Origin: Marivirga sp. ANT-B6
GTDB lineage: Bacteria; Bacteroidota; Bacteroidia; Cytophagales; Cyclobacteriaceae
DNA length: 55,927 nt
Direction: 5' to 3'
NCBI GenBank assembly: GCA_001683905.1
Contig: LXQK01000131.1
Coordinates: 5,560 to 61,486 of the forward strand
Each line of letters starts with the position of its first letter. Position 1 is the first letter of the stretch. A program made the translations under genes and the position numbers. A model generated the notes under the pieces. That model worked only from the letters and a program-made list of their open reading frames with translations. It ran no database searches and had not been told where the DNA came from. Positions 1 through 42,566 of this stretch are shown here, in pieces.

Positions 1-26
1 GCTTATACTTAATCCATGAAGCAATA

Positions 27-76
27 ATACGTATAAATACGTATAAAAAAAATAAATATGTCAAAATAATTACGTA
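27..76. promoter_or_regulatory. Tandem ATACGTAT palindromic boxes upstream of cobA (27-34 and 37-44, 10-bp register) plus a TACGTA core at 71-76
   Basis: Read directly: AATACGTATAAATACGTATAA. The same 21-mer, with 2 mismatches, recurs upstream of nasA at 4840-4860. The third core lies at 71-76, and the cobA ATG is at 122. Confidence 0.5.
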
Positions 77-121
77 CTATTGTTTTCATATTGATAAAAT
101 CGAACCCTAAATATATCCCTA

Positions 122-895
122 ATGGAAGTAGACAAAATAGCAAAAGTAACTTTAGTAGGAGCAGGACCAGGAGCAGCAGACCTAATAACAGTAAGGGGTT
201 TAAAAATTTTACAAGAGGCGGATGTTATCCTTTATGATGCTTTAATAAGCGAAGCGCTTTTAGCGCAATTAGACGAAGCAATCCTTAAAGTGTACGTAGG
301 TAAACGCTGTGGTTTGCATTCGTTTGCCCAAGATGAAATTAACGACCTTATTGTAAAATATGCATTTGAATATGGACATGTGGTTCGATTAAAAGGAGGA
401 GATCCTTTTGTATTTGGCAGGGCGAATGAGGAGATTGAATTTGTGGAATCATTTGGCATTCCTGTAAGCGTAGTTCCAGGGATTTCAAGTTCAATAGCAG
501 TGCCGTCCAGCCAGGGAATACCCATGACCAAAAGAGGTGTAAGCAGTAGTTTTTGGGTAATGACAGCCACAAAACGGGATGGGTCATTCTCTCAAGATTT
601 GAAATATGCGGCTAGTTCTTCAACCACTATGGTTATATTAATGGGCGTGCGAAAATTAGGGGAGATAGCCCTTGAGGTAATTAAATATAGGAGTTCAATG
701 ACTCCTATTGCGGTAATTCAAAACGGCACTACAGAAAAGGAATCCTGTGTTGTAGCTACGCTAGCGACTATTCATAATTATATAGATGCTATAACGATCG
801 AAGAGCCTGGAATAATTGTAATTGGTGATGTTGTTGCGGAACATCCGTCCTTTTTTAAAGAAGAGGTACAACGTGTGCTACACGCTGGCTTCTAA
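122..895 (+). CDS. cobA: Uroporphyrinogen-III C-methyltransferase (SUMT, first step of the siroheme branch)
   Basis: 257-aa ORF with the N-terminal signature VTLVGAGPGAADLITVRGLKILQEADVILYDAL and the GGDPFVFGR motif typical of tetrapyrrole methylases. It has no CysG dehydrogenase/chelatase N-domain. Confidence 0.9.
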   Translation: MEVDKIAKVTLVGAGPGAADLITVRGLKILQEADVILYDALISEALLAQLDEAILKVYVGKRCGLHSFAQDEINDLIVKYAFEYGHVVRLKGGDPFVFGRANEEIEFVESFGIPVSVVPGISSSIAVPSSQGIPMTKRGVSSSFWVMTATKRDGSFSQDLKYAASSSTTMVILMGVRKLGEIALEVIKYRSSMTPIAVIQNGTTEKESCVVATLATIHNYIDAITIEEPGIIVIGDVVAEHPSFFKEEVQRVLHAGF

Positions 896-926
896 TTTTT
901 TATAGTCAACAATTAAAAATCATAAC

Positions 927-1099
927 TACGTAGTAATCCATATTTTATCTGCTTATCCAAGCACTTGTGTTTCATATTTCATAAAATATACTGGAAAAAA
1001 TTTAAAATTATTTATTTTTTCGACCACTGAAAAAGTATATCGATAGATATATACGTAGTTTAATATAAATAAAAAACAAAAACTAAGTAGGAATACGTA
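927..1099. promoter_or_regulatory. Three TACGTA boxes in the narK upstream region (cores 927-932, 1052-1057, 1094-1099)
   Basis: Read directly: CTACGTAG, ATACGTAG and ATACGTAG, in a very AT-rich 250-bp intergenic region. The last two are 42 bp apart, about 4 helical turns. Confidence 0.45.
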
Positions 1100-1147
1100 G
1101 ATTATGTAGTAGATTTGAAAATCATTAATATCAAAACTATCTACATT

Positions 1148-2563
1148 ATGGAAAATCTTTCTAAAAAATCGACCACGTTAAAGTTGTCCAATTTTAAGAG
1201 TATGCCTATCCGTACCTTCTGGATTACATCAATTGCTTTCTTTATCTGTTTTTTTGCCTGGTTCGGCATTGTGCCTTTTATGCCCGATGTGGTAAAAGAT
1301 CTTGGCCTTACCCCGGATCAAAAATGGAACTCTATCATTTTAGCGGTAACCGGGACGGTATTTGCCAGGTTGCTTATAGGGAAACTTTGCGATAGATACG
1401 GGCCAAGATTATGTTATACCTTTTTGCTCATATTGGGAGCTATACCTGTTATCCTAATTGGATTTGTTCAAACACCTATGCAATTTTTGTTCTGTAGATT
1501 TTTTATTGGATTTATAGGTGCCTCCTTTGTTATTACCCAATTCCACACTTCTATCATGTTCGCACCAAATATTGTAGGAACTGCGAATGCCACCTCTGCG
1601 GGTTGGGGAAACTTGGGTGGTGGAGCCAACCGTTTGGGAATGCCATTGATTGCCGCTGCCGTGGTTAGTTTTGGTGTAGCTGATGAAATTGCATGGCGTT
1701 ATTCCATGATTATTGCGGGTATTATTGCCATGTTGATGGGTGTGGTTTACTATTACTTTACCCAAGATACCCCAGAAGGTAACTTTGCACAGTTAAAAAA
1801 AGAAGGTAAAATGCCCAATTTAAAAAAAGACGAGGAATCTTTCTTGAGTGTATTGAAGGATTACCGTGTTTGGATTTTATTTATCGTATATGCTGCTTGT
1901 TTTGGTATTGAACTAACGGTATATGGCACTATGGATGATTACTTGCAGAATACCTTTGGTCTGTCACGATCCGCCGCTGGAAACTTGGTGCTTTCTTTTG
2001 CCTTGATGAACATTTTTGCTCGTACATTGGGGGGTTATTTCGGCGACCTATTTGGCAAATTAAAAGGACTTTATGGCAGGGTTATTTTTTTAACGGTAAT
2101 TCTTGCTGCAGAAGGCGCAATGCTATCCATTTTCTCTATCACTACAAGCTTTGTTCTAGGAATCATCTTCTTAATCGCATTTAGCTTAACGGTTCAAATG
2201 GCAGAAGGTGCAACATTTTCCGTGGTTCCTTTTATCAATAAAAAAGCGATCGGTTCTATTTCGGGTATTGTCGGCGCGGGTGGAAATGTTGGGGCGTTCC
2301 TGGCGGCAATGTTCTTAAAATCAAAATCTGCTGTAGCAGAGACTAGTGCTTTGGCGGCCAATTCCAATTTAGGTGAAGCGGCTATGAAAGCAGCACAGTC
2401 AGCGGCAGCTGCAAATGCCGTATCTAGTGGGTATTTCATCATTGGTGGGTTTGTCGTTATTAGCGCATTGACTACGCTGGCCATTAAATTTTCTACCGCA
2501 GATGAAAACGCGGTGCAAGCGGAAATGAAGGGTGTATTGGCAATTTCTGGATCCGGCAAATAA
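1148..2563 (+). CDS. narK: MFS nitrate/nitrite transporter (NNP family, NarK/NasA-type)
   Basis: Multi-TM ORF with the NNP signature AGWGNLGGGANRLGMP and a second G-rich motif, GIVGAGGNVGAF. The ORF-track start at 1115 is TTG, so I prefer the ATG at 1148 (MENLSKK). Confidence 0.9.
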   Translation: MENLSKKSTTLKLSNFKSMPIRTFWITSIAFFICFFAWFGIVPFMPDVVKDLGLTPDQKWNSIILAVTGTVFARLLIGKLCDRYGPRLCYTFLLILGAIPVILIGFVQTPMQFLFCRFFIGFIGASFVITQFHTSIMFAPNIVGTANATSAGWGNLGGGANRLGMPLIAAAVVSFGVADEIAWRYSMIIAGIIAMLMGVVYYYFTQDTPEGNFAQLKKEGKMPNLKKDEESFLSVLKDYRVWILFIVYAACFGIELTVYGTMDDYLQNTFGLSRSAAGNLVLSFALMNIFARTLGGYFGDLFGKLKGLYGRVIFLTVILAAEGAMLSIFSITTSFVLGIIFLIAFSLTVQMAEGATFSVVPFINKKAIGSISGIVGAGGNVGAFLAAMFLKSKSAVAETSALAANSNLGEAAMKAAQSAAAANAVSSGYFIIGGFVVISALTTLAIKFSTADENAVQAEMKGVLAISGSGK

Positions 2564-2668
2564 GCGCACTTATCAAAATTCAAATCTAATAAATACGATG
2601 AACAGTTTAATAGTATCATTGATGTGCATGCCTGAGCAATTTCCAAAAAATCTAAACTGAATACACCA

Positions 2669-3952
2669 ATGAAAAAATACTTTTTAATTCTAACAATAAG
2701 CTTGTTAAGCGCGCATGCGACATTTTCACAGTTCTCGCTAGATGGTCAGTTTAGGCCAAGAGCAGAGTACAGACATGGTTACGGGAGTTTGATACCTGAT
2801 CGCGCAGATGCCGGTTTTGCAATCTCAACCCGTGTCCGTTTAAATGCCACGTATACGATTGATTCCTATCAATTTTATTTGAGTTTTCAAGATATAATGG
2901 TTTGGGGAGAGAACAGACAGCTTCTACCTGATGACCAAAATGATTCCTTTGCAGTTTTTGAAGCGTGGGCGAACATCAACCTGGGGAAAGGATGGTCCGC
3001 CAAATTGGGAAGACAGGTAATTTCCTATGACGACGAGCGTATATTTGGAGGCTTGGATTGGGCGCAGCAAGGCAGAAACCACGATGCGGGCCTTTTAAAA
3101 TACAAGATAGAAAAATTTTTATTGGATATTGGACTTGCCTTTAGTCAGGATTTTGATGACCCATCCGGGTTTCAGTCTATTGGAACCGCCTATACGACGA
3201 CTGGATTTTTTACTTATAAAACCATGCAATATCTATATGCTAAACAGCAATGGACAGATTTTTCAGGAAGTATCCTGGCATTGAACAATGGGTTTCAAAA
3301 CTTTGACACCTTGGGCGAAGCTGATGGAACCAGTAATCTACAGACGATTGGAACGCATTTGGAGTATAAAAAGGGAAGTTTTAATACAAATGCAAATGTA
3401 TTCTTGCAGACTGGTGAACGGCAAAATAGTTTGAAAGTGGGCGGTGCCTACCTATTGGGACTTGAACTGGGATATAAAGCGAACGATAAGTTGAATTTTG
3501 GTTTAGGAGCGGAAATTATAAGTGGAAATAAAGCGCGTACTACGGATAAAACCGAAGCGTTCTTCCCTCTTTATGGCACCAATCATAAATTCAACGGATT
3601 TATGGATTATTTCTACGTCGGCAACCACGCCAATTCTGTTGGATTGACTGATATTCACGCAAGTGCCAATTTTACCTTGGGTGAAAAATCAAGCTTGCTC
3701 GTCAAAGTATTAAATTTTAGCGGACAACAGGAATTAGCGAGCAGTGAAAAATTATTGGGTACGGAAGTGGATCTGGTATTTTCCAAAAGTTTCAATGGCT
3801 ATGGTCTGGCTATAGGGTATTCCCAAATGTTCGCCGCAGAGGGTATGTATGAGTTAAAGGGCATCGCTGAAGATGCAGCTGCAAGTAACCAGAATTGGGC
3901 ATGGGTGATGCTGACCATTAAGCCGAATTTTTTGAATACGGCAAAGGATTAA
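2669..3952 (+). CDS. Outer-membrane porin, alginate-export-like beta-barrel, probably an anion (nitrate/nitrite) channel
   Basis: Signal peptide MKKYFLILTISLLSAHATFSQ. The sequence has alternating amphipathic beta-strand character with many aromatic girdle residues. The family assignment comes from overall resemblance and from cluster context. Confidence 0.65.
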   Translation: MKKYFLILTISLLSAHATFSQFSLDGQFRPRAEYRHGYGSLIPDRADAGFAISTRVRLNATYTIDSYQFYLSFQDIMVWGENRQLLPDDQNDSFAVFEAWANINLGKGWSAKLGRQVISYDDERIFGGLDWAQQGRNHDAGLLKYKIEKFLLDIGLAFSQDFDDPSGFQSIGTAYTTTGFFTYKTMQYLYAKQQWTDFSGSILALNNGFQNFDTLGEADGTSNLQTIGTHLEYKKGSFNTNANVFLQTGERQNSLKVGGAYLLGLELGYKANDKLNFGLGAEIISGNKARTTDKTEAFFPLYGTNHKFNGFMDYFYVGNHANSVGLTDIHASANFTLGEKSSLLVKVLNFSGQQELASSEKLLGTEVDLVFSKSFNGYGLAIGYSQMFAAEGMYELKGIAEDAAASNQNWAWVMLTIKPNFLNTAKD

Positions 3953-4048
3953 ATTTTTTGTAAAGATGCTTCGATGGGGTGCCACCCGTACTACATAAGT
4001 ATGGCAGCGCCTTTTTCGTTTTTAAAATTATATGTAATTTAGCACAGT

Positions 4049-4054
4049 TACGTA
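4049..4054. promoter_or_regulatory. Single TACGTA box (TTACGTATAA) 15 bp upstream of the response-regulator ATG
   Basis: Read directly. It has the same core as the boxes upstream of cobA, narK and nasA. Confidence 0.35.
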
Positions 4055-4068
4055 TAATTACCTATATT

Positions 4069-4740
4069 ATGAGTGAAATCACTAAAATTGTTTTGGCAGA
4101 TGACCATGCTTTGGTCAGGGATGGAATAAGGGCTTTATTAGAATCCGAAAGGGATTTGGAAGTCATTGGAGAGGTTTCCAATGGCGAGGAAGCTATCGTG
4201 ATGGTTGAAAAGCTGCATCCAGATCTTCTAATAATTGATATTAGGATGCCGGTCATGAACGGTATTGAAGCTGTTGAAGCACTTCACAATAACAATTCTA
4301 ATGTAAAAGTCATCATACTTTCCATGCATGATTCAGAAGAGTATATCTTAAAATCAATTAGCGCAGGAGCAAACGGTTATTTGTTGAAGGATACGGATAA
4401 GACTGAGTTTATAAAAGCGATACATATAGTACGTGATGGTGGCAAATACTTCAGTGGGGATATTAGCAATGTACTTGTAAACAATATTTTAGGCTTGAAG
4501 TTGCCGCTAGTCAACCACGAGAAACAGAGTACACCCAGTGAAAATATTTTTGATTTAACCAATAAAGAACTGCAAATATTAGAATTGGTTCTTTCCGGAT
4601 TGACCAATCAACAGATTTCAGAAAAATTAAAGAACAGTAAGCGTACCATAGAAACCCACCGGTTCAACCTCATGCGTAAAATGGATGTTAAAAATTTAAT
4701 TGACCTTTCTAAAAAAGCGCAAAAACATCAATTGGTTTAG
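4069..4740 (+). CDS. NarL/FixJ (LuxR-type HTH) two-component response regulator with no cognate kinase in the window
   Basis: Receiver domain features: IVLADDHALVRDG and LLIIDIRMPVMNG (phospho-acceptor Asp). C-terminal LuxR HTH: LTNKELQILELVLSGLTNQQISEKLKNSKRTIETHR. The start is taken at ATG 4069 (MSEITKIV) rather than the upstream alternative start at 3979. Confidence 0.9.
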   Translation: MSEITKIVLADDHALVRDGIRALLESERDLEVIGEVSNGEEAIVMVEKLHPDLLIIDIRMPVMNGIEAVEALHNNNSNVKVIILSMHDSEEYILKSISAGANGYLLKDTDKTEFIKAIHIVRDGGKYFSGDISNVLVNNILGLKLPLVNHEKQSTPSENIFDLTNKELQILELVLSGLTNQQISEKLKNSKRTIETHRFNLMRKMDVKNLIDLSKKAQKHQLV

Positions 4741-4839
4741 AATACCTGTCTTTAAATGAGGTCTTAGTTCATTAATCGCATGCATTATAGCACATAATTC
4801 ATACTCATAACAAATTACCCTAATCTTTATCACAACTTA

Positions 4840-4863
4840 AATACGTATTAATACGTATTTTTG
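4840..4863. promoter_or_regulatory. Tandem ATACGTAT boxes (4841-4848, 4851-4858) overlapping a TAnnTTTG -7-like box (4856-4863) upstream of nasA
   Basis: Read directly: AATACGTATTAATACGTATTTTTG. The Bacteroidota -7 consensus is TAnnTTTG, and the nasA ATG is at 4909. Confidence 0.5.
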
Positions 4864-4908
4864 TATTTTGCAGTATTGAAATTAAAGTTGCTCGTCAGCA
4901 CAAGTAAA

Positions 4909-7900
4909 ATGCAAAATAAAAAAACACATAAAACAATTTGTTCCTATTGTGGCGTGGGCTGTGGTATGCTGGTAAATGTGGATGCAAAAGGAACAATATC
5001 AGTTGATGGTAATCCAGATTATCCTTCCAATAAGGGTATGTTATGTACCAAGGGCCGTAATTTAAATTATGTTGCCCAAGATACCTCGGATCGCATATTG
5101 TATCCAGAAATGCGATGGAGCCGAAATCACCCTTTACAACGTGTTAGTTGGGATACGGCCTATGAACGTGCTGCGGCAGTATTTAAAAGTATCATCGCCA
5201 AACACGGTCCGGATAGTGTAGCATTTTATGTGTCCGGTCAATGCTTAACGGAGGAATATTACCTGGTCAACAAACTGACCAAAGGTTTTATAGGCACCAA
5301 TAACATAGACACTAATTCACGATTATGTATGAGTTCTGCGGTCGCGGGCTATAAAAAAACTTTGGGTGAGGACTCCGTTCCTATATCCTATGAAGATATA
5401 GAGTTGGCGGACTGTTTTTTGATTGCGGGGGCAAACCCTGCCTGGTGTCATCCTATACTTTACCGCAGATTGGAAAAGCATAAGGAACAAAATCCTCAAG
5501 TAAAAATAATCGTTGTAGATCCCCGTAAAACCCAAACCTGTGCAGGGGCGGATTTACACTTGCAGATTTTGCCGGGTACCGATGTTATTCTTTTCAACGC
5601 CATTGCCCGTTGGTTAATCGAAAAAAGAAAAATAGACACTTCTTTTATTAAAAAACATACGACAAATTACAACGCGTGTAAGGAAACGGCCTTTTCATTA
5701 TCAATTAGGGAAGCTGCAAAAAAATGTGGCATTGAGGTCAGTGCTATTCGTAAGGCGGCAGAATTTATAGGAAATGCCAAAAAGTTTATAAGCATGTGGA
5801 CCATGGGGCTCAATCAAAGTGTGATCGGGGTCGCAAAAAATGTGTCGCTCATAAATCTTTCATTGTTGACTGGCCAGATCGGTAAACCTGGCTGTGGTCC
5901 TTTTTCATTAACCGGACAGCCCAATGCCATGGGTGGTCGTGAAGTGGGGGGGATGGCAAATTTGTTGGCGGCCCATAAAGATTTAGGAAACCCAGCACAT
6001 AGAAAGGAAGTATCGGATTTTTGGGGAGGTGGAGAGATTAAGGCGGAACCAGGTTACACTGCTACGGAAATGTTTGATGCGTTAGAAAATGGAAAGCTAA
6101 AGGCTATCTGGATTATTTGTACCAATCCGGCCGTGAGTATGCCCAACGTCCATAAGGTTGAAAAAGCATTGAAGAACGCCAAGTTTGTAGTGGTACAGGA
6201 CATCTCGCATAATTCTGAAACTACAAAGTTTGCAGATTTGTTATTGCCCGCCGCGGGATGGTTAGAAAAAGAGGGCACCATGACCAACTCAGAAAGGCGT
6301 ATCAGTCATTTGCCCAAAGTAATTGACCCTCCAGGGGAAGCCATGCCAGATGCGGAAATATTATGGCGTTTTGCCCAGGCTATGGGCTATCATGGTTTTG
6401 ACTATAAAAATGCCAGTGAGGTATATGATGAGCATTGTTTGCTTACCAAAGGCACGGAGATAGATATCTCTGGACTTTCCTATGACCGACTTATCAGTGA
6501 GGGTAGTTTTCAATGGCCCGTTCCCCACAATACCCATATGGGAACTCCGCGACTATTTACGGACTTTCAATTTTTTACCGACGATAAAAAAGCGCATTTT
6601 AATGCGCCATCCACCCTATACAATAAGTCTGAAGAAACTGATTACGAGTATTCGTTGATCTTAAATACGGGCAGGGTCAGGGACCAATGGCATACCCGCA
6701 CCAAAACTGGCAAGGTAAAGCGTTTGCTTACCCATATTCCAGAGCCTTATTTGGAAATGAACAGGGTCGATGCCTATTTGAGAAATCTTAAGGAGGGTGA
6801 TATTGCAGTCGTTAAAAGTAGAAGGGGACAGGTACAGGTAAAAGTGCAGGTTAACTTTGATATCCGTAAATCTGTTGTGTTTCTACCCATGCATTGGGGC
6901 AAGGTATTGAATAATGATTTTGGAAGGGCCAATAATCTCACCAGCGAATTGGTAGATCCCGTGTCAAAAGAACCTGATTTTAAATATTGTGCTGTTGAGG
7001 TAACCAAATTTGTTAAGCAAAAACAGAAAATCATCATTATTGGTGCCGGGGCGGCAGCGTATCGATTTATTCAATCGTATCGAGAAAAGAATAGAAGGGA
7101 CCCGCTACATGTTTTTTCCAAGGAAGAAAATCCATTTTATAATCGAGTACTCCTACCTGACTATGTAAGTGATGAACTTTCATGGGATGCGCTGGAAAAG
7201 TTGAAAAAGGGGGAGTTGAACAAGCTGTCGGTAGTATTGCATTCCGGTATTGGGATTGATAAGATTGATGCCCATAAAAAGACGGTAACCGATTCAAACG
7301 GAACGGAACATTCGTATGATCTTTTGATTATGGCCACGGGTAGTAGGGCTTATGTGCCTAGTGATGTACAGATACAATTACCAGGTCGTTTTACGATGCG
7401 GGAAAAGGGAGATGCGGATAAGTTAAAGAGCTATTTAGCAGAAACAGGCCTTCCTGCAAGGGAACAAAATGTGGTCATTGTTGGCGGTGGATTATTGGGC
7501 TTGGAACTTGCAGCCTCACTGAAAAAAATAGATGTGAATATTAGCATTATTCAACGGGCACCAAAATTAATGGAACGACAACTGGATAGCGTTGCAAGCC
7601 GTTTGTTGGCCGAGGATGTTTTGGAACGGGGCATAAATCTTTACTTTGACAACGAGGTTAGTACCGTTTTTGAAGATAGGACGCGAAAACATACCCTTTT
7701 GATTAACCTAAAAACCGGGCGAACTATTCAATGTAACGCCATAGTCTATGCTATCGGTACCAGACCCAACATAGAATTGGCGAAACAGACCAATTTGAAT
7801 ACCCATAGAGGGGTGGTGGTCAATTCATATTTACAATCCAGCGACCCAACTATTTTTGCGTTGGGAGAAATTGCGGAATATAAAAATGCATTGTTCGGTA

Positions 7901-8439
7901 TTACTTCCGCAGCGGAACAACAGGCAGATATTGCAGCAAATTACATCCTTGGTGATTTTAGTAGTATCTATAGCGGTTCTGTGTTGATGAACATTCTAAA
8001 GTTTGAAAACCTGGACCTTTGTAGTATCGGGATGGTCAATGCGCCCATTGGAGATTCGTCATATGAGGAAATTATCCTGATGGATGTCAATAAACGTTTT
8101 TACAAAAAATGTATCGTTAAGGATGACACCTTAAAAGGCGCCATTTTAATGGGCGATAAAAATGAGTTTGCAGAATTTAAAAGATTGATCGAAGAAGAGA
8201 TAGAACTCTCTGAAAAAAGAAACGAACTCTTACGTGGGGCTTCGACCTCTGTGCCACTAAAAGGGAAAATAGTTTGCTCGTGTAGTCAGGTGGGAGAAGG
8301 TAATATTTTGGACGCCATAAATGGGGGCTGCACCAATTTCAACAAACTCTGCTCAGAAACAGGTGCGGGATTGGGCTGTGGAAGCTGCAAGCCTGAAATT
8401 AAGGAACTACTAAAAAACCATCTGGTTTTGGCCAATTAA
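4909..8439 (+). CDS. nasA: Assimilatory nitrate reductase catalytic subunit (molybdopterin) fused to a NirB-N-terminal-like FAD/NAD(P)H reductase with a BFD-type [2Fe-2S] domain
   Basis: N-terminal CSYCGVGCGM...LCTKG 4Fe-4S motif, followed by a molybdopterin-oxidoreductase body up to about nt 7020. Then come IIIIGAGAAAYRF (FAD), VVIVGGGLLGLELA (NAD) and a C-terminal CSCSQVGEGNILDAI...GCGSCKPE BFD-like 2Fe-2S domain. The ATG at 4909 (MQNKKTHK) is preferred over the TTG at 4861. Confidence 0.9.
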   Translation: MQNKKTHKTICSYCGVGCGMLVNVDAKGTISVDGNPDYPSNKGMLCTKGRNLNYVAQDTSDRILYPEMRWSRNHPLQRVSWDTAYERAAAVFKSIIAKHGPDSVAFYVSGQCLTEEYYLVNKLTKGFIGTNNIDTNSRLCMSSAVAGYKKTLGEDSVPISYEDIELADCFLIAGANPAWCHPILYRRLEKHKEQNPQVKIIVVDPRKTQTCAGADLHLQILPGTDVILFNAIARWLIEKRKIDTSFIKKHTTNYNACKETAFSLSIREAAKKCGIEVSAIRKAAEFIGNAKKFISMWTMGLNQSVIGVAKNVSLINLSLLTGQIGKPGCGPFSLTGQPNAMGGREVGGMANLLAAHKDLGNPAHRKEVSDFWGGGEIKAEPGYTATEMFDALENGKLKAIWIICTNPAVSMPNVHKVEKALKNAKFVVVQDISHNSETTKFADLLLPAAGWLEKEGTMTNSERRISHLPKVIDPPGEAMPDAEILWRFAQAMGYHGFDYKNASEVYDEHCLLTKGTEIDISGLSYDRLISEGSFQWPVPHNTHMGTPRLFTDFQFFTDDKKAHFNAPSTLYNKSEETDYEYSLILNTGRVRDQWHTRTKTGKVKRLLTHIPEPYLEMNRVDAYLRNLKEGDIAVVKSRRGQVQVKVQVNFDIRKSVVFLPMHWGKVLNNDFGRANNLTSELVDPVSKEPDFKYCAVEVTKFVKQKQKIIIIGAGAAAYRFIQSYREKNRRDPLHVFSKEENPFYNRVLLPDYVSDELSWDALEKLKKGELNKLSVVLHSGIGIDKIDAHKKTVTDSNGTEHSYDLLIMATGSRAYVPSDVQIQLPGRFTMREKGDADKLKSYLAETGLPAREQNVVIVGGGLLGLELAASLKKIDVNISIIQRAPKLMERQLDSVASRLLAEDVLERGINLYFDNEVSTVFEDRTRKHTLLINLKTGRTIQCNAIVYAIGTRPNIELAKQTNLNTHRGVVVNSYLQSSDPTIFALGEIAEYKNALFGITSAAEQQADIAANYILGDFSSIYSGSVLMNILKFENLDLCSIGMVNAPIGDSSYEEIILMDVNKRFYKKCIVKDDTLKGAILMGDKNEFAEFKRLIEEEIELSEKRNELLRGASTSVPLKGKIVCSCSQVGEGNILDAINGGCTNFNKLCSETGAGLGCGSCKPEIKELLKNHLVLAN

Positions 8440-8449
8440 AAGAATAGGT

Positions 8450-9886
8450 ATGAATGATGACCTTCATAGAATATTAATTAAAGGCGGTGTTACGTCGCCT
8501 GGGGAACTTAAGGATATAATCACCATGCTAGAGGCTGCGGGTTTAAGCACAGTATTTTTTGGCTCCAGACAGGATATTTTATTTCCTCTAAAAGATGCCA
8601 AGGAAGAACAGCTGGAAGGTATCTCCAAATTGAATACGGATATTATTGGTAACCGTTCCTATCAAAATATTGTAAGCTCCTACGTTTCAGCAGATATTTT
8701 TGATATGACGTATTGGTTGAAAGGATCTACCTATCTCTATATTTTGGAAGGATTCGATTTTTCACCAAAGCTAAAAATCAATATTACGGACCCTAAACAA
8801 CGTTTGGTTCCTATTTTTAATGGCAATCTTAATTTTATTGCTTCTGACAGTGAGGATTATTGGTATCTGAATATAAAGCTGCCGCATTGGAAAACTTCGG
8901 CCTTTTATCCGGTACTTATTTATAGTTGGGATATCAATATCGTTTCAAAACGTATCGAAGAAATCCACGAAGATATTCAGGATGTGGAGGAACTTTTTTT
9001 TGTGATGAACAAGCACTTGGAGACTAACAATAAGACCATGGAAAAGGAATTGAAGATACCTTTTCAAACCTTTCCCTACTACGAAGGAATGAACAGATTG
9101 GGAACGGACTCCTATTGGCTAGGACTTTATTGGCGAAACAATAAATACGACCTTCGTTTTTTAAAGGATTTTTGTGGATTTTGTTTGGACAATAGTATTG
9201 GTAAAATATGTGTTACCCCTTGGAAATCTTTTATCGTCAAAGGAATCAAAACATCCAGCAGACCAGAATTGGAACGCTTCTTAGGGAAACGAGGTATAAA
9301 TGTTCGGCATTCGCAATTGGAAATGAACTGGCACGTTCCTGTGGATGATGGCGAGGCATTGGAGCTTAAGAAATTCTTGGTCAGTAGTTTTGACCAAAAT
9401 GATATTAGCACCTATGGTCTTACCTTTGGTATCAGTAATGAAATGGGCAACCGATCACATTTTGCTTCGGTGGTTATTGAAAAAAATAGTTTGCCAACGC
9501 TGGTAAAGGATTTTGATGTTCGCCCGTCGTACAACGTCCTCTATTTTGAGAACTTTGACCCCAACACCCAGAACTATACTACCTATGCTCAAGATATCGA
9601 TAAGATTGAATTACCTGGGTTGTTGATGGAGTTGAGTAAAATGTATTTTGATCAATTGGGAAGGGCAACAGATTCAGAAAAAATTACCACAAAAGAGGTA
9701 GTTGACACAAAACACCGTGTCTATCAATGTCAAGATTGCTTTACGGTTTATGATGAGGTATTGGGGGATGGAGTGGCGGGTATTCATCCCGGCACAAAAT
9801 TCGGTGTCCTGCCAGACACTTATTCTTGCCCAGTTTGCGATGGCCCTAAAAGCAACTTTTCAGAAACCTTTTTGCTTATCGAATAA
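8450..9886 (+). CDS. Nitrite/sulfite-reductase-fold protein (two ferredoxin-like half domains) lacking the siroheme/[4Fe-4S] cysteine tetrad, with a C-terminal rubredoxin domain
   Basis: The N-terminus ILIKGGVTSPGELKDIITMLEAAGLSTVFFGSRQDILFPL fits the NIR_SIR ferredoxin-like half-domain pattern. A second copy is YWLGLYWRNNKYDLRFLKDFCGFCLDNSIGKICVTPWKSFIVKGI. The C-terminus YQCQDC...YSCPVCDGPK is a rubredoxin Cx2C...CPxCG motif. There are only 7 Cys in total, 4 of them in the rubredoxin. The gene starts 10 nt after the nasA stop. Confidence 0.7.
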   Translation: MNDDLHRILIKGGVTSPGELKDIITMLEAAGLSTVFFGSRQDILFPLKDAKEEQLEGISKLNTDIIGNRSYQNIVSSYVSADIFDMTYWLKGSTYLYILEGFDFSPKLKINITDPKQRLVPIFNGNLNFIASDSEDYWYLNIKLPHWKTSAFYPVLIYSWDINIVSKRIEEIHEDIQDVEELFFVMNKHLETNNKTMEKELKIPFQTFPYYEGMNRLGTDSYWLGLYWRNNKYDLRFLKDFCGFCLDNSIGKICVTPWKSFIVKGIKTSSRPELERFLGKRGINVRHSQLEMNWHVPVDDGEALELKKFLVSSFDQNDISTYGLTFGISNEMGNRSHFASVVIEKNSLPTLVKDFDVRPSYNVLYFENFDPNTQNYTTYAQDIDKIELPGLLMELSKMYFDQLGRATDSEKITTKEVVDTKHRVYQCQDCFTVYDEVLGDGVAGIHPGTKFGVLPDTYSCPVCDGPKSNFSETFLLIE

Positions 9887-10036
9887 TTATAATATTTTTC
9901 GTCTCTGCCAACTTTGATTTTTAAATCTGAAACAAGTTCATTATTCGGTAATAACACATTTGAAATACTAGCGCTTCCATACTTTCAGCATTTATCTTTC
10001 CCTACTTTAATATATTTTATGATAAAAGGAGCTTAA

Positions 10037-38688: not shown

Positions 38689-39936
38689 TTAACGTAAAAG
38701 CCCTACGGCTACGGTTGAGTTCGTGTGCTCATCGATAAGTATGAAAGCGGCATTTGCTCTATTTTCGGCGTAGGAATCATAGAAAATTTCTTTGGCTGTT
38801 TTCAAAGTAACATCAGCAATTTCATTTAGCTTCAGCTGATTGACCACCGGTTCGGATTCCAAAGAGATGACATCGATCAGGTTGTGAATGCCTGTGACTC
38901 TGGCTCGCGAAACATTGACCCCATGTTGTAGAAGGAATATGCCGCCAGAGGCCATGGGCTCATGCGACATCCAGCAGATTGTCGCATTCATCTGCCTGGT
39001 TTGCTGCGGAAGTTGATGCACCGGCACGATCATATCGCCGCGGCTAAGGTCTACGTCATCTTCCAATATAATATTGACTGATTCACTGGCCTGAGCGGCC
39101 TCCATTTCCCGGCCAAATTTTTCAATTTTTGAAATGGTAGTTTCCTGCCTCCCTGGCAACACGACAACCTTTTCACCTTTTCGGAAGACGCCACTGACCA
39201 CTTTCCCAGCATAAGCACGGTAGTCGTGAAAAGCTTCGGACTTTGGCCTGATCACATACTGTACAGGAAACCTGGAGACCTCCTCTGAAAGGGATTCGTG
39301 CAGGGTGATTTTTTCCAACATTTGCAATAGCGCACTGCCCTTATACCAGGGCATTGAGGAGGACTTCTCAACAATATTTTCGCCCAAAAGAGACGATATA
39401 GGCACAAATTCTATTTGCTGCCCTTCAAATTTTACCTTCTCGGCAAAAGCCAAAAACTGACTCTTGATATCCTCGAAATGTTGCTGCGAATAGCCGACAA
39501 GATCCATTTTATTGATGCAGATCATCACCTGCGGGATTCGCAGCAGACATGAAATATAAAAGTGCCGGAAAGTTTGCTCTACAACACCTTTCCTGGCATC
39601 GATGAGGATCAGCGATACGTTGGCGTTAGATGCACCTGTGACCATGTTGCGAGTATATTCGAAATGGCCGGGGGTGTCGGCAATGATAAATTTTCGTTGT
39701 GGCGTGGAAAAGTAGATATGTGCGACATCGATGGTGATGCCCTGCTCGCGTTCGGCAATCAGCCCATCGGTAAGCAATGAAAGATCGACATAACCGAGTC
39801 CCTTTTTTTTGCTGGCAGCCATAATGGCCTCGAGCTTGTCGTCGGTGATCGAGTTTGTGTCGAAAAGCAACCTGCCAATCAATGTACTTTTGCCATCGTC
39901 GACGCTACCTGCGGTAGCAATATTTAATACTTCCAT
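38689..39936 (-). CDS. cysN: Sulfate adenylyltransferase subunit 1 (GTPase), without an APS-kinase domain
   Basis: G1 motif ATAGSVDDGKST, then DTPGH and NKMD. At 415 aa it has no C-terminal CysC module. Confidence 0.9.
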   Translation of the reverse strand: MEVLNIATAGSVDDGKSTLIGRLLFDTNSITDDKLEAIMAASKKKGLGYVDLSLLTDGLIAEREQGITIDVAHIYFSTPQRKFIIADTPGHFEYTRNMVTGASNANVSLILIDARKGVVEQTFRHFYISCLLRIPQVMICINKMDLVGYSQQHFEDIKSQFLAFAEKVKFEGQQIEFVPISSLLGENIVEKSSSMPWYKGSALLQMLEKITLHESLSEEVSRFPVQYVIRPKSEAFHDYRAYAGKVVSGVFRKGEKVVVLPGRQETTISKIEKFGREMEAAQASESVNIILEDDVDLSRGDMIVPVHQLPQQTRQMNATICWMSHEPMASGGIFLLQHGVNVSRARVTGIHNLIDVISLESEPVVNQLKLNEIADVTLKTAKEIFYDSYAENRANAAFILIDEHTNSTVAVGLLR

Positions 39937-39939
39937 GGG

Positions 39940-40845
39940 CTAAAAATATCCTGATTGTTTTCGTTTTTCCATAGCGGCTTCTGAGCGTTTATCGTCTATT
40001 CTCGCGCCTCTTTCCGAGACAGTAGCCAATAGGATTTCCTGGATGATATGATCTATTTGATTGGCTGAAGACTCTACCGCGGCAGTACAAGTCATGTCGC
40101 CTACAGTTCTAAAACGAACCTGCCTTTTTTCCACAACTTCATTGTCGGTAACATTTACAAAAGAAGAGTATGGTAAAATCTGGCCGTCGCGCACGAAGGT
40201 GTCTCTTTCATGGGCATAATAAATGGATGGAATGGCTAGCTCATCTTCCTTGATATAATTCCATACGTCCAGCTCTGTCCAGTTGCTGATAGGAAATACC
40301 CGCACATTCTCGCCAAGGCTGATGCGGCCATTCAACATATCAAAAAGTTCTGGCCTTTGTTTTTTGGCATCCCATTGTCCAAAATCATTGCGCACAGAAA
40401 ATATTCTCTCCTTAGCTCTGGCCTTTTCTTCATCCCTCCTGGCACCACCAATACATGCATCAAATTTAAACTCTTCAATAGCGTCTAGTAAGGTGACGGT
40501 TTGCAGCACATTTCTGCTGGCATATTTACCTGTTTCTTCTACTGCCTTTTTCTGATCGATGCTGTCTTGCACATAACGTACAATCAGTTCAAGGTCAAAT
40601 TTTTCTACCAGTTCATCCCTAAACCGGATGGTTTCGTCGAAGTTGTGGCCTGTATCGATATGCAACAAAGGAAACGGGATTTTAGCTGGATAAAATGCCT
40701 TTATCGCCAAACGCACAAGCGTGATGGAATCTTTACCTCCCGAAAATAATAAAACCGGCTTTTCGAATTGTGCCGCTACTTCACGGAAGATATAAATGGC
40801 TTCATCTTCCAGTTCTCTGGGAAAGAGGGATGAATTTTCAACCAT
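39940..40845 (-). CDS. cysD: Sulfate adenylyltransferase subunit 2
   Basis: PAPS-reductase/ATP-PPase fold with LLFSGGKDS and LLHIDTGHNF. The start is taken at MVENSS (40845), 7 nt after the cysH stop. The longer ORF-track form would overlap cysH by 83 nt. Confidence 0.85.
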   Translation of the reverse strand: MVENSSLFPRELEDEAIYIFREVAAQFEKPVLLFSGGKDSITLVRLAIKAFYPAKIPFPLLHIDTGHNFDETIRFRDELVEKFDLELIVRYVQDSIDQKKAVEETGKYASRNVLQTVTLLDAIEEFKFDACIGGARRDEEKARAKERIFSVRNDFGQWDAKKQRPELFDMLNGRISLGENVRVFPISNWTELDVWNYIKEDELAIPSIYYAHERDTFVRDGQILPYSSFVNVTDNEVVEKRQVRFRTVGDMTCTAAVESSANQIDHIIQEILLATVSERGARIDDKRSEAAMEKRKQSGYF

Positions 40846-40852
40846 AAGTTCT

Positions 40853-41569
40853 TTATTTATTAAAATAGTTTGCATGTAGTCCGCATTCTTTTTGTGTTTG
40901 TTCCCACCACCACCTACCGGCTCTGGCTTCTTCACCAGGCGCTATTGCCCTGGTACAAGGTGCACACCCAATGCTGATGAAACCGCTTTGGTGTAATTTA
41001 TTGCTAGGAATATGGTATAATGCCAAATAGGCCAGCATGTCTTCGTATGACCAACCGATGATCGGATTAAATTTAATTATTTGGAACGCCTCGTCCCACT
41101 CAAGCAAAGAAATATTGCTTCGGTTATCACTTTGTGCTGCGCGCAACCCCGTAATCCAGACACTGGCACCGGCCAAAGCTCGCTTTAATGGCTGTACTTT
41201 CCGGATGTTACAGCACAACTTCCGGTTTTCTACGCTCTCATAGAAGCTATTGATGCCATGGCTATCGACAAAATCCTCTATTTGTGTGGCATCAGGATAA
41301 TAAGCTTTTATTTTGGCCTGATATAGTTGTTCCGTTTCTTCCCACAGCGCATAGGTCTCATGGAATAATCTTCCGGTATCGAGAGAAAAAACCTGTACAG
41401 GCAATTGATTCTTGAAGATTGCATGTGCAATTACCTGGTCCTCCTGACCAAGAGCGGACGAAAATACAGCCCTTCCTGCAAACCGCTGACCCATCAAGAG
41501 CAGCGATGCTTCCAGACTTAAGTCCTGAATCTCTTCAAGAAGTGACGGTATCTGGTCTTTGATATTCAT
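40853..41569 (-). CDS. cysH: Assimilatory adenylyl-sulfate (APS)/PAPS reductase, Fe-S-type (CC...CxxC class)
   Basis: It contains KLCCNIRKV, GCAPCTR and C-terminal KECGLH. The CC plus CxxC motifs are characteristic of [4Fe-4S] APS reductases. Confidence 0.85.
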   Translation of the reverse strand: MNIKDQIPSLLEEIQDLSLEASLLLMGQRFAGRAVFSSALGQEDQVIAHAIFKNQLPVQVFSLDTGRLFHETYALWEETEQLYQAKIKAYYPDATQIEDFVDSHGINSFYESVENRKLCCNIRKVQPLKRALAGASVWITGLRAAQSDNRSNISLLEWDEAFQIIKFNPIIGWSYEDMLAYLALYHIPSNKLHQSGFISIGCAPCTRAIAPGEEARAGRWWWEQTQKECGLHANYFNK

Positions 41570-41855
41570 TGATTGGCTTTTTTACCGTAAATTTTTCCCA
41601 CGCTCGCTCATGGAAATAATAGAGCAGGATCTTACTAAATACCTCTATAGAACCAATAGAAATGGCCATTTTAAGCTCTCCTGTTATAAAATATGATATT
41701 ACAATCGTATCGATTGTTCCCAACACCCTCCACGAAATAGCTTTCCCTAAACTCTTAAATTTAGAATCACCTCCTTGACTTTTAGAGGAGGATAACTTTT
41801 TCAAATATGGATCCAGAAACATACTTTTGAAATCTTGAAAGGTAAAAGTACACAT
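41535..41855 (-). CDS. DUF2061-family small membrane protein
   Basis: SWRVLGTIDTIVISYFITGE...IGSIEVFSKILLYYFHERAWE matches the DUF2061 pattern. An alternative ATG lies at 41822. The 3' end overlaps the cysH start by 35 nt. Confidence 0.65.
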   Translation of the reverse strand: MCTFTFQDFKSMFLDPYLKKLSSSKSQGGDSKFKSLGKAISWRVLGTIDTIVISYFITGELKMAISIGSIEVFSKILLYYFHERAWEKFTVKKPINEYQRPDTVTS

Positions 41856-42143
41856 TCTCTACAAATTTTATAGACTATCTTCCATTTTTTTTGATTTCAG
41901 TTAATATTTTTTAGAAGATATTGGTACATGGCCTGGCAAAAAGCCTCAGAAAATGTTTTAGAAGGTATATTGACGCTTAAATCGGAGTGTGAATAGAGCC
42001 ATTTAACTGGCGAGCCGCGCCTCTTGATGGCTTAGTAGAAATGACAGACACATCTTGAAGTCCCTGTTTGTAGCCATTAAATTTGATGTTAAAAAAAATC
42101 CACACCTCAATGGCATGGATCAATAAGTGCGGGAAACGGCCGC

Positions 42144-42566
42144 TTATGACAAAGGTTTTTTAATGATATCAAACAAGGTTTTATGCTCCACTATTTCGAG
42201 GGTCTGATCCCGGACCTGGCACATGATTATGTGTAGACCACAAGTCGTTTCGTCTTCACAATCCGCACATTTTTCATAGTAGTGTAAACTAACGCAAGGA
42301 AGCCAGGCGATAGGACCGTCTAATAAACGTATGATCTTAGCCAAAGTGATTTCCTGGGCTGGTTTGATAAGATAGTAGCCGCCTCCCTTTCCTTTTTTAC
42401 TTCCGAGAATCCCAGCTTTCCGCAATTCCAGCAGTATATTTTCCAAAAACTTTTGAGAAATCTGTTTACGTTGTGCTATTTCCTGGATTAAGATAGCGCC
42501 TTTTTCTTCATTTTCGGCAAGATATGTCAATGCATGAAATGCATACCGGGTTTTTTTCGATAACAT
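42144..42566 (-). CDS. Rrf2-family transcriptional regulator (CymR/IscR-like)
   Basis: MLSKKTRYAFHALTYLA...ISQKFLENILLELRKAGILGSKKGKGGGY is the Rrf2 wHTH. A C-terminal Cys cluster, CVSLHYYEKCADCEDETTC, is a possible Fe-S ligand set. Confidence 0.85.
   Translation of the reverse strand: MLSKKTRYAFHALTYLAENEEKGAILIQEIAQRKQISQKFLENILLELRKAGILGSKKGKGGGYYLIKPAQEITLAKIIRLLDGPIAWLPCVSLHYYEKCADCEDETTCGLHIIMCQVRDQTLEIVEHKTLFDIIKKPLS

What the first reader, a model, noticed from the sequence alone, without database searches (positions are those of the whole stretch)
27..4863. TACGTA / ATACGTAT box array marking every promoter region of the nitrate cluster
Nine TACGTA cores fall in the four intergenic regions of this cluster:
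- cobA upstream: 27-34, 37-44 and 71-76.
- narK upstream: 927-932, 1052-1057 and 1094-1099.
- Response-regulator upstream: 4049-4054.
- nasA upstream: 4841-4848 and 4851-4858.

The cobA and nasA sites are near-identical tandem 21-mers (AATACGTAT[A/T]AATACGTAT) with 10-bp phasing, and the nasA copy overlaps a TAnnTTTG -7-like box. My manual scan of the other ~46 kb found only two further TACGTA hexamers, both inside CDSs (about 18142 and 51236); a manual scan can miss some.

TACGTAT matches the NarL heptamer TACYYMT at 6 of 7 positions. The cluster-encoded NarL-type regulator is therefore an obvious candidate binder, but that is inference.
Basis: partly seen in the sequence, partly recalled or inferred. 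Interest (0 to 1): 0.65.

Follow-up and report, generated by a model that had tools for sequence, protein, structure and literature searches.

The report
Conserved operator of flavobacterial nitrate-assimilation genes
The TACGTA boxes are real and conserved across marine flavobacteria: they are halves of a 16-base palindrome at the promoters of the nitrate-uptake and nitrate-reduction genes, most likely the docking site of the nitrate-sensing two-component regulator encoded in the same cluster.

Summary
The window has 14 in total.

The functional unit is a 16-bp palindrome, TAMGTA-N4-TACKTA, with A-rich and T-rich flanks. Exact copies are at 28-43, 1084-1099 and 4842-4857. A one-mismatch copy is at 4049-4064. 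Extra single hexamers accompany them.

In 80 related Flavobacteriaceae loci the palindrome occurs 228 times, always between genes. It sits upstream of nasA, nirBD/cobA, narK, nrtA and the regulator gene itself. TACGTA is the most enriched 6-mer in cluster intergenic regions.

The cluster encodes a NarL/FixJ-family response regulator. Its partner kinase, just outside the window, has a NarX-like nitrate-sensor domain. The regulator is present in 76 of 81 loci and its DNA-recognition helix barely varies.

It is the best candidate binder (about 0.7), but binding is inferred, not shown. The similarity to the E. coli NarL heptamer is superficial. The palindrome lies on or just upstream of the -7 promoter box. 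The sign of regulation is unresolved; I favour nitrate-dependent activation with autorepression.

I found no report of this motif. It is a new member of a known kind.

The parts
6..11 (-). Degenerate hexamer (TAAGTA on the nirB strand) in the presumed nirB leader
   Evidence: One-mismatch list. Relatives carry TACGTA near the nirB start codon.
28..43 (.). Exact palindrome TACGTATAAATACGTA in the divergent nirB/cobA intergenic region
   Evidence: A palindrome is present in all 42 loci where the nirB upstream region is visible. On the nirB strand its last TA begins a -7-like box, TATTATTG.
71..76 (+). Single TACGTA overlapping the cobA -7-like box TACTATTG (75-82)
   Evidence: The conserved context is AAAATAAtTACGTAtTcTTGTTG in relatives.
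122..895 (+). cobA, uroporphyrinogen-III C-methyltransferase (siroheme branch, for nitrite reductase)
   Evidence: TIGR01469, 278 bits, above its cut-off.
927..932 (+). Distal single TACGTA just after the cobA stop codon
   Evidence: Conserved only among the closest Maribacter loci.
1052..1057 (+). Single TACGTA 32 bp upstream of the narK palindrome
   Evidence: A hexamer in the context aaaaaTACGTA lies 25-35 bp upstream of the palindrome in most loci.
1084..1099 (.). Exact palindrome TAAGTAGGAATACGTA at the narK promoter
   Evidence: 35 of 37 loci have a palindrome here. A degenerate third hexamer, TATGTA, lies at 1103-1108.
1110..1117 (+). Exact -7 box TAGATTTG of narK (inferred)
   Evidence: Read from the sequence. 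In relatives an exact TAnnTTTG lies 8 or 10 bp after the palindrome (24 of 35 loci) or overlaps its last two bases (7 of 35). The -7 box occupies -12 to -5 in flavobacteria (PMC9723704).
1148..2563 (+). NarK-family nitrate/nitrite MFS transporter
   Evidence: TIGR00886, 301 bits, just under its cut-off of 311.7; Pfam MFS_1.
2669..3952 (+). Outer-membrane porin of the Alginate_exp family. No box upstream, so it is probably co-transcribed with narK.
   Evidence: PF13372. Conserved in the cluster.
4049..4064 (.). Palindrome variant TACGTATAATTACCTA, 5 bp before the regulator start codon and downstream of a -7-like box TAATTTAG (4035-4042)
   Evidence: In relatives the arrangement is TAtaTTTG|TACGTAtaa.TAC..A. 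The median distance from palindrome end to ATG is 11 nt.
4069..4740 (+). NarL/FixJ-family response regulator (receiver domain plus GerE helix-turn-helix), the candidate binder
   Evidence: Pfam. Best solved relative is NarL, E = 7e-36. Present in 76 of 81 loci with a nearly invariant recognition helix.
4842..4857 (.). Exact palindrome TACGTATTAATACGTA at the nasA promoter
   Evidence: 75 of 81 loci have a palindrome here.
4856..4871 (+). Two candidate -7 boxes of nasA: TATTTTTG (4856-4863, overlapping the palindrome) and the conserved TATTTTGC (4864-4871, of the TAnnTTGY type)
   Evidence: Consensus aTTTT.TAatTT downstream of the palindrome; offsets; the TAnnTTGY class is described in PMC9723704.
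4909..8439 (+). Assimilatory nitrate reductase fused to an NAD(P)H flavoprotein module
   Evidence: Molybdopterin, Pyr_redox_2 and BFD domains.
8450..9886 (+). Rubredoxin-domain protein, 10 bp after nasA and so probably in the same operon
   Evidence: PF00301. Conserved directly after nasA in nearly all loci.

Best explanation
The TACGTA boxes are halves of a 16-bp palindromic operator, TAMGTA-N4-TACKTA, with AAAAn and nTTTT flanks. This operator defines a nitrate/nitrite-assimilation regulon in Flavobacteriaceae.

Proposed mechanism, step by step:
1. A membrane histidine kinase encoded next to nirBD, just outside the window, senses nitrate or nitrite. It carries a periplasmic NarX-like PilJ/P-box domain, then PAS, HisKA_3 and the ATPase domain.
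2. It phosphorylates the cluster's NarL/FixJ-family response regulator (4069-4740).
3. A regulator dimer binds each palindrome. Additional single hexamers give extended occupancy; some of them are spaced about 10 bp apart.
4. At nasA, nirBD, cobA and narK (and nrtA in relatives) the sites lie on or 6-10 bp upstream of the -7 box. That places them over the spacer and the -33 position. I infer that the bound regulator recruits RNA polymerase there.
5. At its own gene the palindrome lies downstream of the -7 box, which suggests negative autoregulation.

What is shown: the motif, its conservation, its restriction to this regulon, and its co-occurrence with the regulator. What is inferred: who binds it, the signal, and the sign of regulation.
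For: - **Window counts.** 9 hexamers in 999 bp of cluster intergenic DNA, against 0 in 6,425 bp of other intergenic DNA. There are three exact palindromes and one with a single mismatch, all in the cluster.
- **Eighty related loci.** 228 palindromes, about 1 expected by chance (my estimate from base composition). All are effectively intergenic: 224 by the crude gene calls, and the other 4 are gene-call artefacts at nasA or nirB/cobA promoters.
- **Coverage by gene.** Present upstream of nasA in 75 of 81 loci, nirB in 42 of 42, narK in 35 of 37 and nrtA in 35 loci. Also found at narK2, a periplasmic PilJ-domain protein, globins and a MobA-like gene.
- **Unbiased enrichment.** TACGTA is the top 6-mer in cluster intergenic regions.
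- **Unbiased metagenome scan.** 12 of 120 exact hits to one palindrome variant fall in nitrate-assimilation clusters.
- **Protein half-sites, not a hairpin.** The variable positions in the two halves vary independently (Fisher p = 0.13; 90 mixed sites).
- **The regulator.** Present in 76 of 81 loci. Overall identity falls to 51%, yet the recognition helix barely varies. The same helix and motif occur on a divergent contig, L151.
- **A cognate pair.** Kinase and regulator genes are adjacent in L078-L080, L115 and L151.
- **The kinase.** It has the PilJ domain and a P-box-like AGRQRAFSQ stretch. It fits the Bacteroidetes narHK/narRR class described in PMC8199190.
- **Promoter geometry.** See, with -7 box coordinates taken from PMC9723704.
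Against: - No binding or expression data exist. The RNA-seq contigs I could lay down gave no transcription start sites.
- A palindrome centred at about -18 to -30 is a more typical repressor position in E. coli terms, so activation is a guess.
- There is no true negative control. Almost every cluster that has the motif also has the regulator, so co-occurrence cannot separate it from an unlinked factor.
- A Crp/Fnr-family gene sits inside the cluster in 18 of 83 loci, and its family also binds 5-N4-5 palindromes.
- Whole genomes could not be scanned, so the size of the regulon is unknown.
Confidence: 0.6

Rival explanations
1. The palindrome is the operator of a Crp/Fnr-family regulator. One such gene, with an N-terminal CxxCxxxxC motif, lies between narK and nrtA in some clusters. 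The response regulator would then bind something else.
For: A Crp-family gene lies in the cluster in 18 of 83 fetched loci, including Zobellia galactanivorans. The 5-N4-5 geometry matches FNR-type boxes (family knowledge). In L051 one such gene lies downstream of a palindrome.
Against: No such gene is found in the 56-kb window, in the 5.8 kb upstream of it (L001), or in most loci where the whole cluster is visible. All of these still carry the motif. The gene tracks the nrtABCD insertion rather than the motif.
Confidence: 0.12
2. An unlinked repressor encoded outside the cluster occupies the core promoters. It could be an NO/nitrite-sensing Rrf2/NsrR-like protein or a general nitrogen-status repressor. 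The cluster regulator would act elsewhere or not at all.
For: The sites overlap the -7 box, the spacer and the leaders, which are classic repressor positions. Globin genes are among the targets, as they are in NsrR regulons (family knowledge).
Against: A general nitrogen regulator should also mark other nitrogen-related genes, yet no palindrome lies outside nitrate-linked genes in 1.76 Mb of loci. No Rrf2 gene is in any cluster. The window's only Rrf2 gene heads a sulfate-assimilation operon and has no box. The motif differs from NsrR consensus sites, which I recall from memory.
Confidence: 0.12
3. The elements act as RNA or DNA hairpins, for example as leader structures for antitermination in the manner of NasR or NasT.
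For: TACGTA-N4-TACGTA can fold into a 6-bp stem with a 4-nt loop. Some hexamers lie in leader regions.
Against: Ninety of 228 sites are mixed variants (TACGTA...TACTTA or TAAGTA...TACGTA) that break a stem pair, and there is no covariation. Most palindromes lie upstream of the -7 box, so they would not be transcribed. There is no ANTAR-domain protein and no Rfam match.
Confidence: 0.02
4. The hexamers are a chance by-product of AT-rich intergenic composition.
For: One of 100 shuffles of the whole window reached 14 hexamers.
Against: There are none in 6.4 kb of other intergenic DNA in the window. 228 palindromes are conserved across genera, against about 1 expected by my composition estimate. 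TACGTA is the top enriched k-mer.
Confidence: 0.01

Closest known systems
E. coli NarX/NarQ-NarL/NarP system and its TACYYMT heptamers in the 7-2-7 arrangement
   Same: A periplasmic P-box sensor kinase of the HisKA_3 type is paired with a response regulator carrying a GerE-type helix-turn-helix. The target is a 16-bp inverted repeat with several sites per promoter. A perfect site here can be written TACGTAW-NN-WTACGTA, which is formally 7-2-7.
   Different: It controls assimilatory genes (nasA, nirBD, narK, nrtA), not respiratory ones. Heptamer position 4 is an invariant G. Variant sites lose the outer TAC. The NarL base-contact residues K188, V189 and K192 are replaced by E, T and F. The kinase has a PAS domain, and this Bacteroidetes class lacks HAMP and GAF-like domains according to PMC8199190. 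The sites abut a Bacteroidetes -7 box.
Bacteroidetes 'narHK/narRR' nitrate-sensing kinases (review PMC8199190)
   Same: Same architecture (transmembrane sensor, PAS, DHp, catalytic domain) and the same neighbourhood of nitrate-metabolism genes. This cluster is very probably a member.
   Different: The passages of the review that I retrieved classify the kinases only. I saw no DNA target or regulon there, and my literature searches found none elsewhere.
RcsB and EvgA boxes (other NarL/FixJ-family palindromes)
   Same: These are dimer sites made of short inverted half-sites separated by 2-4 bp. The RcsB box TNRGA-N4-TCYNA resembles TAAGTA-N4-TACTTA. This comparison is from memory.
   Different: Different half-site length, different regulon and different phylum. 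The resemblance was not tested here.
PhoB pho boxes that replace the -35 element
   Same: Response-regulator sites lie next to the downstream promoter element where the upstream element (-35, or -33 here) is missing.
   Different: PhoB belongs to the OmpR family and binds direct repeats. The sites here reach closer to the -7 box or overlap it. The analogy concerns mechanism only.
Pathway-specific nitrate induction by NasR, NasS-NasT or NtcB in other bacteria
   Same: The same physiological role: nitrate/nitrite-specific control of nas and nir genes.
   Different: NasR and NasS-NasT act through ANTAR-type RNA antitermination, and NtcB is a LysR-type activator. Here the element is a DNA operator and the regulator a classical two-component system.

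Membership tests
NarL/NarP heptamer operator (7-2-7) | Heptamer consensus TACYYMT | tested here: not met
   Position 4 is G in all 233 unique sites, though the site-selection pattern fixed that G, so this is partly by construction. Position 3 is C in 67% and A in 31%. The match is at best 6 of 7, with a fixed mismatch.
NarL/NarP heptamer operator (7-2-7) | Two inverted heptamers separated by 2 bp | tested here: inconclusive
   Perfect sites fit TACGTAW-NN-WTACGTA. Variants such as TAAGTA-N4-TACTTA fit better with TAC at the inner side of each half, which is the opposite orientation.
NarL/NarP heptamer operator (7-2-7) | Bound by a NarL ortholog with base contacts K188, V189 and K192 | tested here: not met
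   NarL is the best solved relative (E = 7e-36), but the aligned residues are E, T and F. The NCBIfam NarL score is 149.9, below the cut-off of 250.
Bacteroidetes narHK/narRR nitrate-sensing two-component system (PMC8199190) | Transmembrane kinase with a periplasmic P-box/PilJ nitrate-binding domain | tested here: met
   PF13675 scores 48.9 bits against a cut-off of 26.6. The sequence VNIAGRQRAFSQKL lies between two hydrophobic segments.
Bacteroidetes narHK/narRR nitrate-sensing two-component system (PMC8199190) | No HAMP or GAF-like domain; a PAS domain precedes HisKA_3 and HATPase | tested here: met
   Pfam finds PAS_9/PAS_4, HisKA_3 and HATPase_c, with no HAMP or GAF hit. The class is described.
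Bacteroidetes narHK/narRR nitrate-sensing two-component system (PMC8199190) | Paired NarL/FixJ-type regulator and neighbouring nitrate-metabolism genes | tested here: met
   The kinase and regulator genes are adjacent in L078-L080, L115 and L151.
Bacteroidetes narHK/narRR nitrate-sensing two-component system (PMC8199190) | The kinase actually responds to nitrate or nitrite and the regulator binds the palindrome | not testable with these tools
   Needs ligand-binding, phosphotransfer and footprinting experiments.
Crp/Fnr-type operator | A Crp/Fnr-family regulator co-occurs with the motif | tested here: not met
   Such a gene is found in only 18 of 83 loci. There is none in the window or in L001. 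A copy elsewhere in the genome could not be excluded.
NsrR (Rrf2) operator | An Rrf2 regulator is linked to the regulon or has its own box | tested here: not met
   No Rrf2 gene is in any cluster locus. The window's Rrf2 gene (42144-42566) heads a PAPS-reductase/CysN-like operon and has no TACGTA upstream.
ANTAR antitermination leader (NasR, NasT) | An ANTAR-domain protein plus a structured leader with a terminator | tested here: not met
   No ANTAR domain in the cluster proteins, no Rfam match and no stem covariation.

The most novel reading that the evidence does not exclude
The recurring fusion of a hexamer to the -7 box (TACG-TAnnTTTG), together with the absence of any -33 element, may reflect a Bacteroidetes-specific way of activating transcription. 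In this reading a NarL/FixJ-type regulator dimer sits in the spacer and -33 position and substitutes for recognition of the -33 element by the unusual primary sigma factor. The same protein would shut off its own gene from a site at about +3 to +18 (inferred start).
Probability: 0.25. Interest if true: 0.6.

Novelty: new member of a known kind. Interest (0 to 1): 0.42.

Why it matters
**Ecology.** Marine Flavobacteriaceae are major heterotrophic consumers of nitrate. How they switch on nitrate assimilation has not been described; my literature searches found nothing on it.

**What this analysis provides.**
- A precise operator that can be tested directly.
- A candidate sensor-regulator pair.
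- A compact predicted regulon: nasA, nirBD, cobA, narK, nrtABCD, the porin, and in some genomes globins.

**Practical use.**
- The motif can be used to annotate nitrate regulons in genomes and metagenomes.
- It could serve as the basis for nitrate-responsive reporters in Bacteroidota.
- It offers a way to study how a classical response regulator works at the atypical -33/-7 promoters of this phylum.

Tried and rejected
- **RNA-seq for transcription starts.** The window comes from a metagenome with no RNA runs. Runs matching the Cellulophaga baltica locus L031 are kept only as contigs, and these cover the intergenic DNA continuously. No 5' ends could be read.
- **Rfam search of 1-10000.** Nothing near threshold.
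- **Sigma-70 promoter scan.** Fewer hits than in shuffles, and not applicable to Bacteroidetes promoters.
- **Hairpin or antitermination idea.** Rejected because the two halves vary independently.
- **NsrR idea.** The only Rrf2 gene in the window belongs to a sulfate-assimilation operon.
- **Crp/Fnr idea.** Not excluded, but the gene is absent from most loci that carry the motif.
- **Non-nitrate metagenome hits.** The other 108 exact matches are scattered in base composition, and the few I examined had unrelated neighbours (VWA-domain proteins, a replication-protein contig). I treated them as chance or unrelated. A few lie near LuxR-type genes with an RTVETHR helix, but too few to count as evidence.
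- **A second conserved element.** An ATTAYCA/TTATCAAT sequence lies upstream of the boxes, but it did not rank among the k-mers enriched over other intergenic DNA, so it is not cluster-specific.
- **Co-variation between the recognition helix and the motif.** Not informative, because every ortholog reached has essentially the same helix and the same motif.

Full report
**What is in the sequence**

TACGTA occurs 14 times in the 55.9-kb window, against 6.4 expected. One lies inside cobA (293). Four lie inside distant ORFs (18142, 32149, 34755, 51236). ATACGTAT occurs four times, as the two tandem pairs.

With crude gene calls, the cluster's 999 bp of intergenic DNA holds 9 hexamers. The other 6,425 bp of intergenic DNA holds none, and 48.5 kb of coding DNA holds 5. 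AT-rich composition therefore does not explain the boxes.

**Gene content**

From left to right the window encodes:
- cobA (122-895);
- a NarK-family transporter (1148-2563);
- an Alginate_exp-type porin (2669-3952);
- a NarL/FixJ-family response regulator (4069-4740);
- a nitrate reductase fused to an NAD(P)H flavoprotein module (4909-8439);
- a rubredoxin-domain protein (8450-9886).

An identical contig, L001, extends 5.8 kb to the left. It shows that the window begins two bases after the nirB start codon, so the 'cobA upstream' region is the divergent nirBD/cobA control region. Beyond nirD lies a histidine kinase with PilJ, PAS, HisKA_3 and HATPase domains. It has two hydrophobic segments flanking a periplasmic region that contains VNIAGRQRAFSQKL, a P-box-like stretch.

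This architecture matches the Bacteroidetes class of nitrate-sensing kinases that lack HAMP and GAF-like domains. A 2021 review calls these narHK/narRR (PMC8199190). The closest nitrate-reductase relatives are from Maribacter, at up to 90% identity. The source is a metagenome.

**The real unit is a 16-bp palindrome**

I fetched 80 Flavobacteriaceae loci around nasA orthologs. Genera include Maribacter, Zobellia, Arenibacter, Cellulophaga, Kriegella, Flagellimonas, Aquimarina, Lutibacter, Aureibaculum and Christiangramia.

A tandem pair of hexamers is conserved upstream of nasA in 75 of 81 loci, counting L001. It is also conserved upstream of nirB in all 42 loci where that region is visible, and upstream of narK in 35 of 37.

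The variants show the true pattern. The left half is TACGTA or TAAGTA. The right half is TACGTA or TACTTA. The spacer is four A/T bases. The flanks are A-rich on the left and T-rich on the right. This gives AAAAn-TAMGTA-WWWW-TACKTA-nTTTT.

The strict pattern occurs 228 times in 1.76 Mb. I estimate about 1 by chance from base composition. Of these, 224 are intergenic by crude gene calls. The other four are gene-call artefacts at nasA or nirB/cobA promoters.

In the window, exact copies are at 28-43, 1084-1099 and 4842-4857, and a one-mismatch copy is at 4049-4064. Nothing else in the window comes within one mismatch. The remaining singles (71, 927, 1052) are accessory sites. Those at 71 and 1052 are conserved in position.

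**Independent checks**

- An unbiased k-mer comparison of cluster intergenic regions with other intergenic regions ranks TACGTA first: 212 of 408 regions against 41 of 375. Many of the 41 lie upstream of nrtA or other cluster-linked genes that I had not labelled.
- Every gene downstream of a palindrome that was not in my initial list is either nitrate-linked or the divergent neighbour of a nasA promoter. The list: an NrtA-type binding protein (35 loci), a second NarK type, a periplasmic PilJ-domain protein, two globins, a MobA-like gene, a Crp-family gene and an unannotated 580-aa repeat protein divergent from nirB in L080.
- An exact-match scan of a metagenome collection for TACGTATTAATACGTA returned 120 contigs, and 12 of them carry nitrate-assimilation genes. 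That is far above any plausible background. The rest look like chance or unrelated matches.

**Protein site or nucleic-acid structure?**

The variable positions in the two halves vary independently. The counts are C/G 109, C/T 44, A/G 46 and A/T 29 (Fisher p = 0.13). Ninety sites would have a mismatched stem pair. Most palindromes lie upstream of the -7 box. There is no ANTAR-domain protein and no Rfam match. This points to a dimeric DNA-binding protein reading two half-sites.

**Who binds?**

The response regulator is the only transcription factor encoded in the window's cluster.
- It is present in 76 of 81 loci.
- It lies directly next to the kinase gene in L078-L080, L115 and L151.
- It has the phospho-acceptor aspartate aligned with that of NarL.
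- It carries a palindrome at its own promoter in many genera.
- Overall identity among orthologs falls to 51%, yet the recognition helix (RTIETHRFNLM) barely varies. The same helix accompanies the same motif on a divergent contig with 49% G+C.

GerE-type regulators typically bind 14-20-bp inverted repeats as dimers, which is family knowledge.

These are good reasons, but they are circumstantial. There is no set of clusters that has the motif and lacks the regulator, or the reverse.

A Crp/Fnr-family gene with an N-terminal cysteine motif lies between narK and nrtA in 18 of 83 loci, including Zobellia galactanivorans. Its family also reads 5-N4-5 palindromes. It is absent from the window, from L001 and from most loci where the full cluster is visible, so I rank it lower.

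An unlinked repressor cannot be excluded. However, no Rrf2 gene accompanies any cluster. The window's Rrf2 gene heads a sulfate-assimilation operon and has no box.

**Relation to NarL**

- Heptamer position 4 is always G, where NarL requires a pyrimidine.
- A third of sites have A at the C of TAC.
- The three NarL residues that contact bases (K188, V189, K192) align with E, T and F in this protein.
- The protein scores below the NCBIfam NarL cut-off, 149.9 against 250.

It works like a NarX-NarL system, but it is not a NarL ortholog, and the motif is its own.

**Promoter geometry and likely sign**

In flavobacteria the primary sigma factor reads TAnnTTTG at -12 to -5. A TAnnTTGY variant occupies the same position (PMC9723704).

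Measured from the end of the palindrome, an exact TAnnTTTG starts as follows:
- nirB: at -2, so it overlaps the last two bases of the palindrome (24 of 42 loci);
- narK: at -2 (7), +8 (11) or +10 (13) of 35 loci;
- nasA: at -2 (11) or +6 (8) of 75 loci, with a conserved TAatTTGC at +6.

The palindrome therefore covers roughly -38 to -11, over the spacer and the place where a -33 element would be. I saw no TTTG at that position in the window.

Often a hexamer is fused to the -7 box as TACG-TAnnTTTG. This holds for the single hexamer at cobA (71-76, with TACTATTG at 75-82) and for the third hexamer at narK in relatives.

At the regulator's own gene the order is reversed. The -7 box comes first and the palindrome follows, ending about 11 nt before the ATG.

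I read this as stereospecific activation at the structural genes and autorepression at the regulator gene. This fits the expectation that a nitrate sensor should induce an assimilatory pathway. A pure repressor model fits the positions equally well in E. coli terms. Without mapped transcription starts or mutants the sign is open; I put activation at about 0.6.

**Novelty**

Full-text searches for the motif, and for regulators of flavobacterial nitrate assimilation, found no description of this operator or regulon. Database names for the regulator are generic. The kinase class is known from sequence analysis.

The finding is a well-supported new regulon and motif of a familiar type. It is useful and testable, but not surprising in kind.

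Noticed in passing
window 38689-42566 (minus strand): An Rrf2-family regulator (42144-42566) heads an apparent sulfate-assimilation operon. The operon contains a DUF2061 protein, two PAPS-reductase-domain proteins (possibly CysH and CysD) and a CysN-like GTPase. It is probably a sulfur-responsive Rrf2 regulon and is unrelated to the TACGTA boxes.
   Followed up: partly
window about 3965-4020: A terminator-like hairpin followed by a T-run lies just after the porin gene. Its leading sequence, TGCTTCGA, is conserved across genera (23 of 408 cluster intergenic regions against 1 of 375 others). This would make the regulator gene a separate transcription unit.
   Followed up: partly
window 4813-4833 and about 91-100; L009, L012, L022, L023 upstream of nasA: A second conserved element, ATTAYCA/TTATCAAT, lies upstream of the palindromes. 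In several genera two copies sit about 31 bp apart. It did not rank among the k-mers enriched over other intergenic DNA. It may be a general promoter feature or the site of a global regulator.
   Followed up: partly
window 4864-4871; nasA promoters of most loci: The conserved box 6 bp after the nasA palindrome reads TAATTTGC or TATTTTGC. This fits the TAnnTTGY promoter class ('SM5') reported for Flavobacterium psychrophilum rather than the standard TAnnTTTG.
   Followed up: no
L001 2232-2867: About 640 bp between nirD and the histidine-kinase gene has only a 34-codon called ORF and no TACGTA. It could be a decayed gene or a long untranslated region.
   Followed up: no
L082 3279-4034 and 17 other loci: A Crp/Fnr-family gene with an N-terminal CxxCxxxxC motif lies between narK and the nrtABCD genes, only in clusters that carry the ABC nitrate transporter. 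It may be a redox or NO sensor layered on the nitrate system.
   Followed up: partly
L071-L074 about 3988-4818: Aquimarina clusters encode a secreted protein of about 276 residues made of two PilJ/P-box-like repeats and no output domain. It lies downstream of a palindrome and could be a periplasmic nitrate-binding accessory protein.
   Followed up: no
L112 2950-3295; L097 1741-1791: Unrelated metagenome contigs also carry dense TACGTA arrays, for example six hexamers between two VWA-domain genes. Other regulators elsewhere evidently use similar palindromes.
   Followed up: partly
L059 and L060, upstream of the regulator gene: Short tandem repeats of 7 and 8 bases (CATCAAC and ACCACAA units) lie in the intergenic region before the regulator gene in two Maribacter genomes.
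   Followed up: no
window 4909-9886: The nitrate reductase is fused to a NirB-N-terminal-like flavoprotein module (1176 residues). It is followed by a 478-residue protein with a C-terminal rubredoxin domain and a faint nitrite/sulfite-reductase ferredoxin-like half-domain. This pairing is conserved in nearly all of the loci (78 of 81 show full rubredoxin-protein coverage; two more are cut by contig ends) and may be the electron-delivery partner.
   Followed up: no
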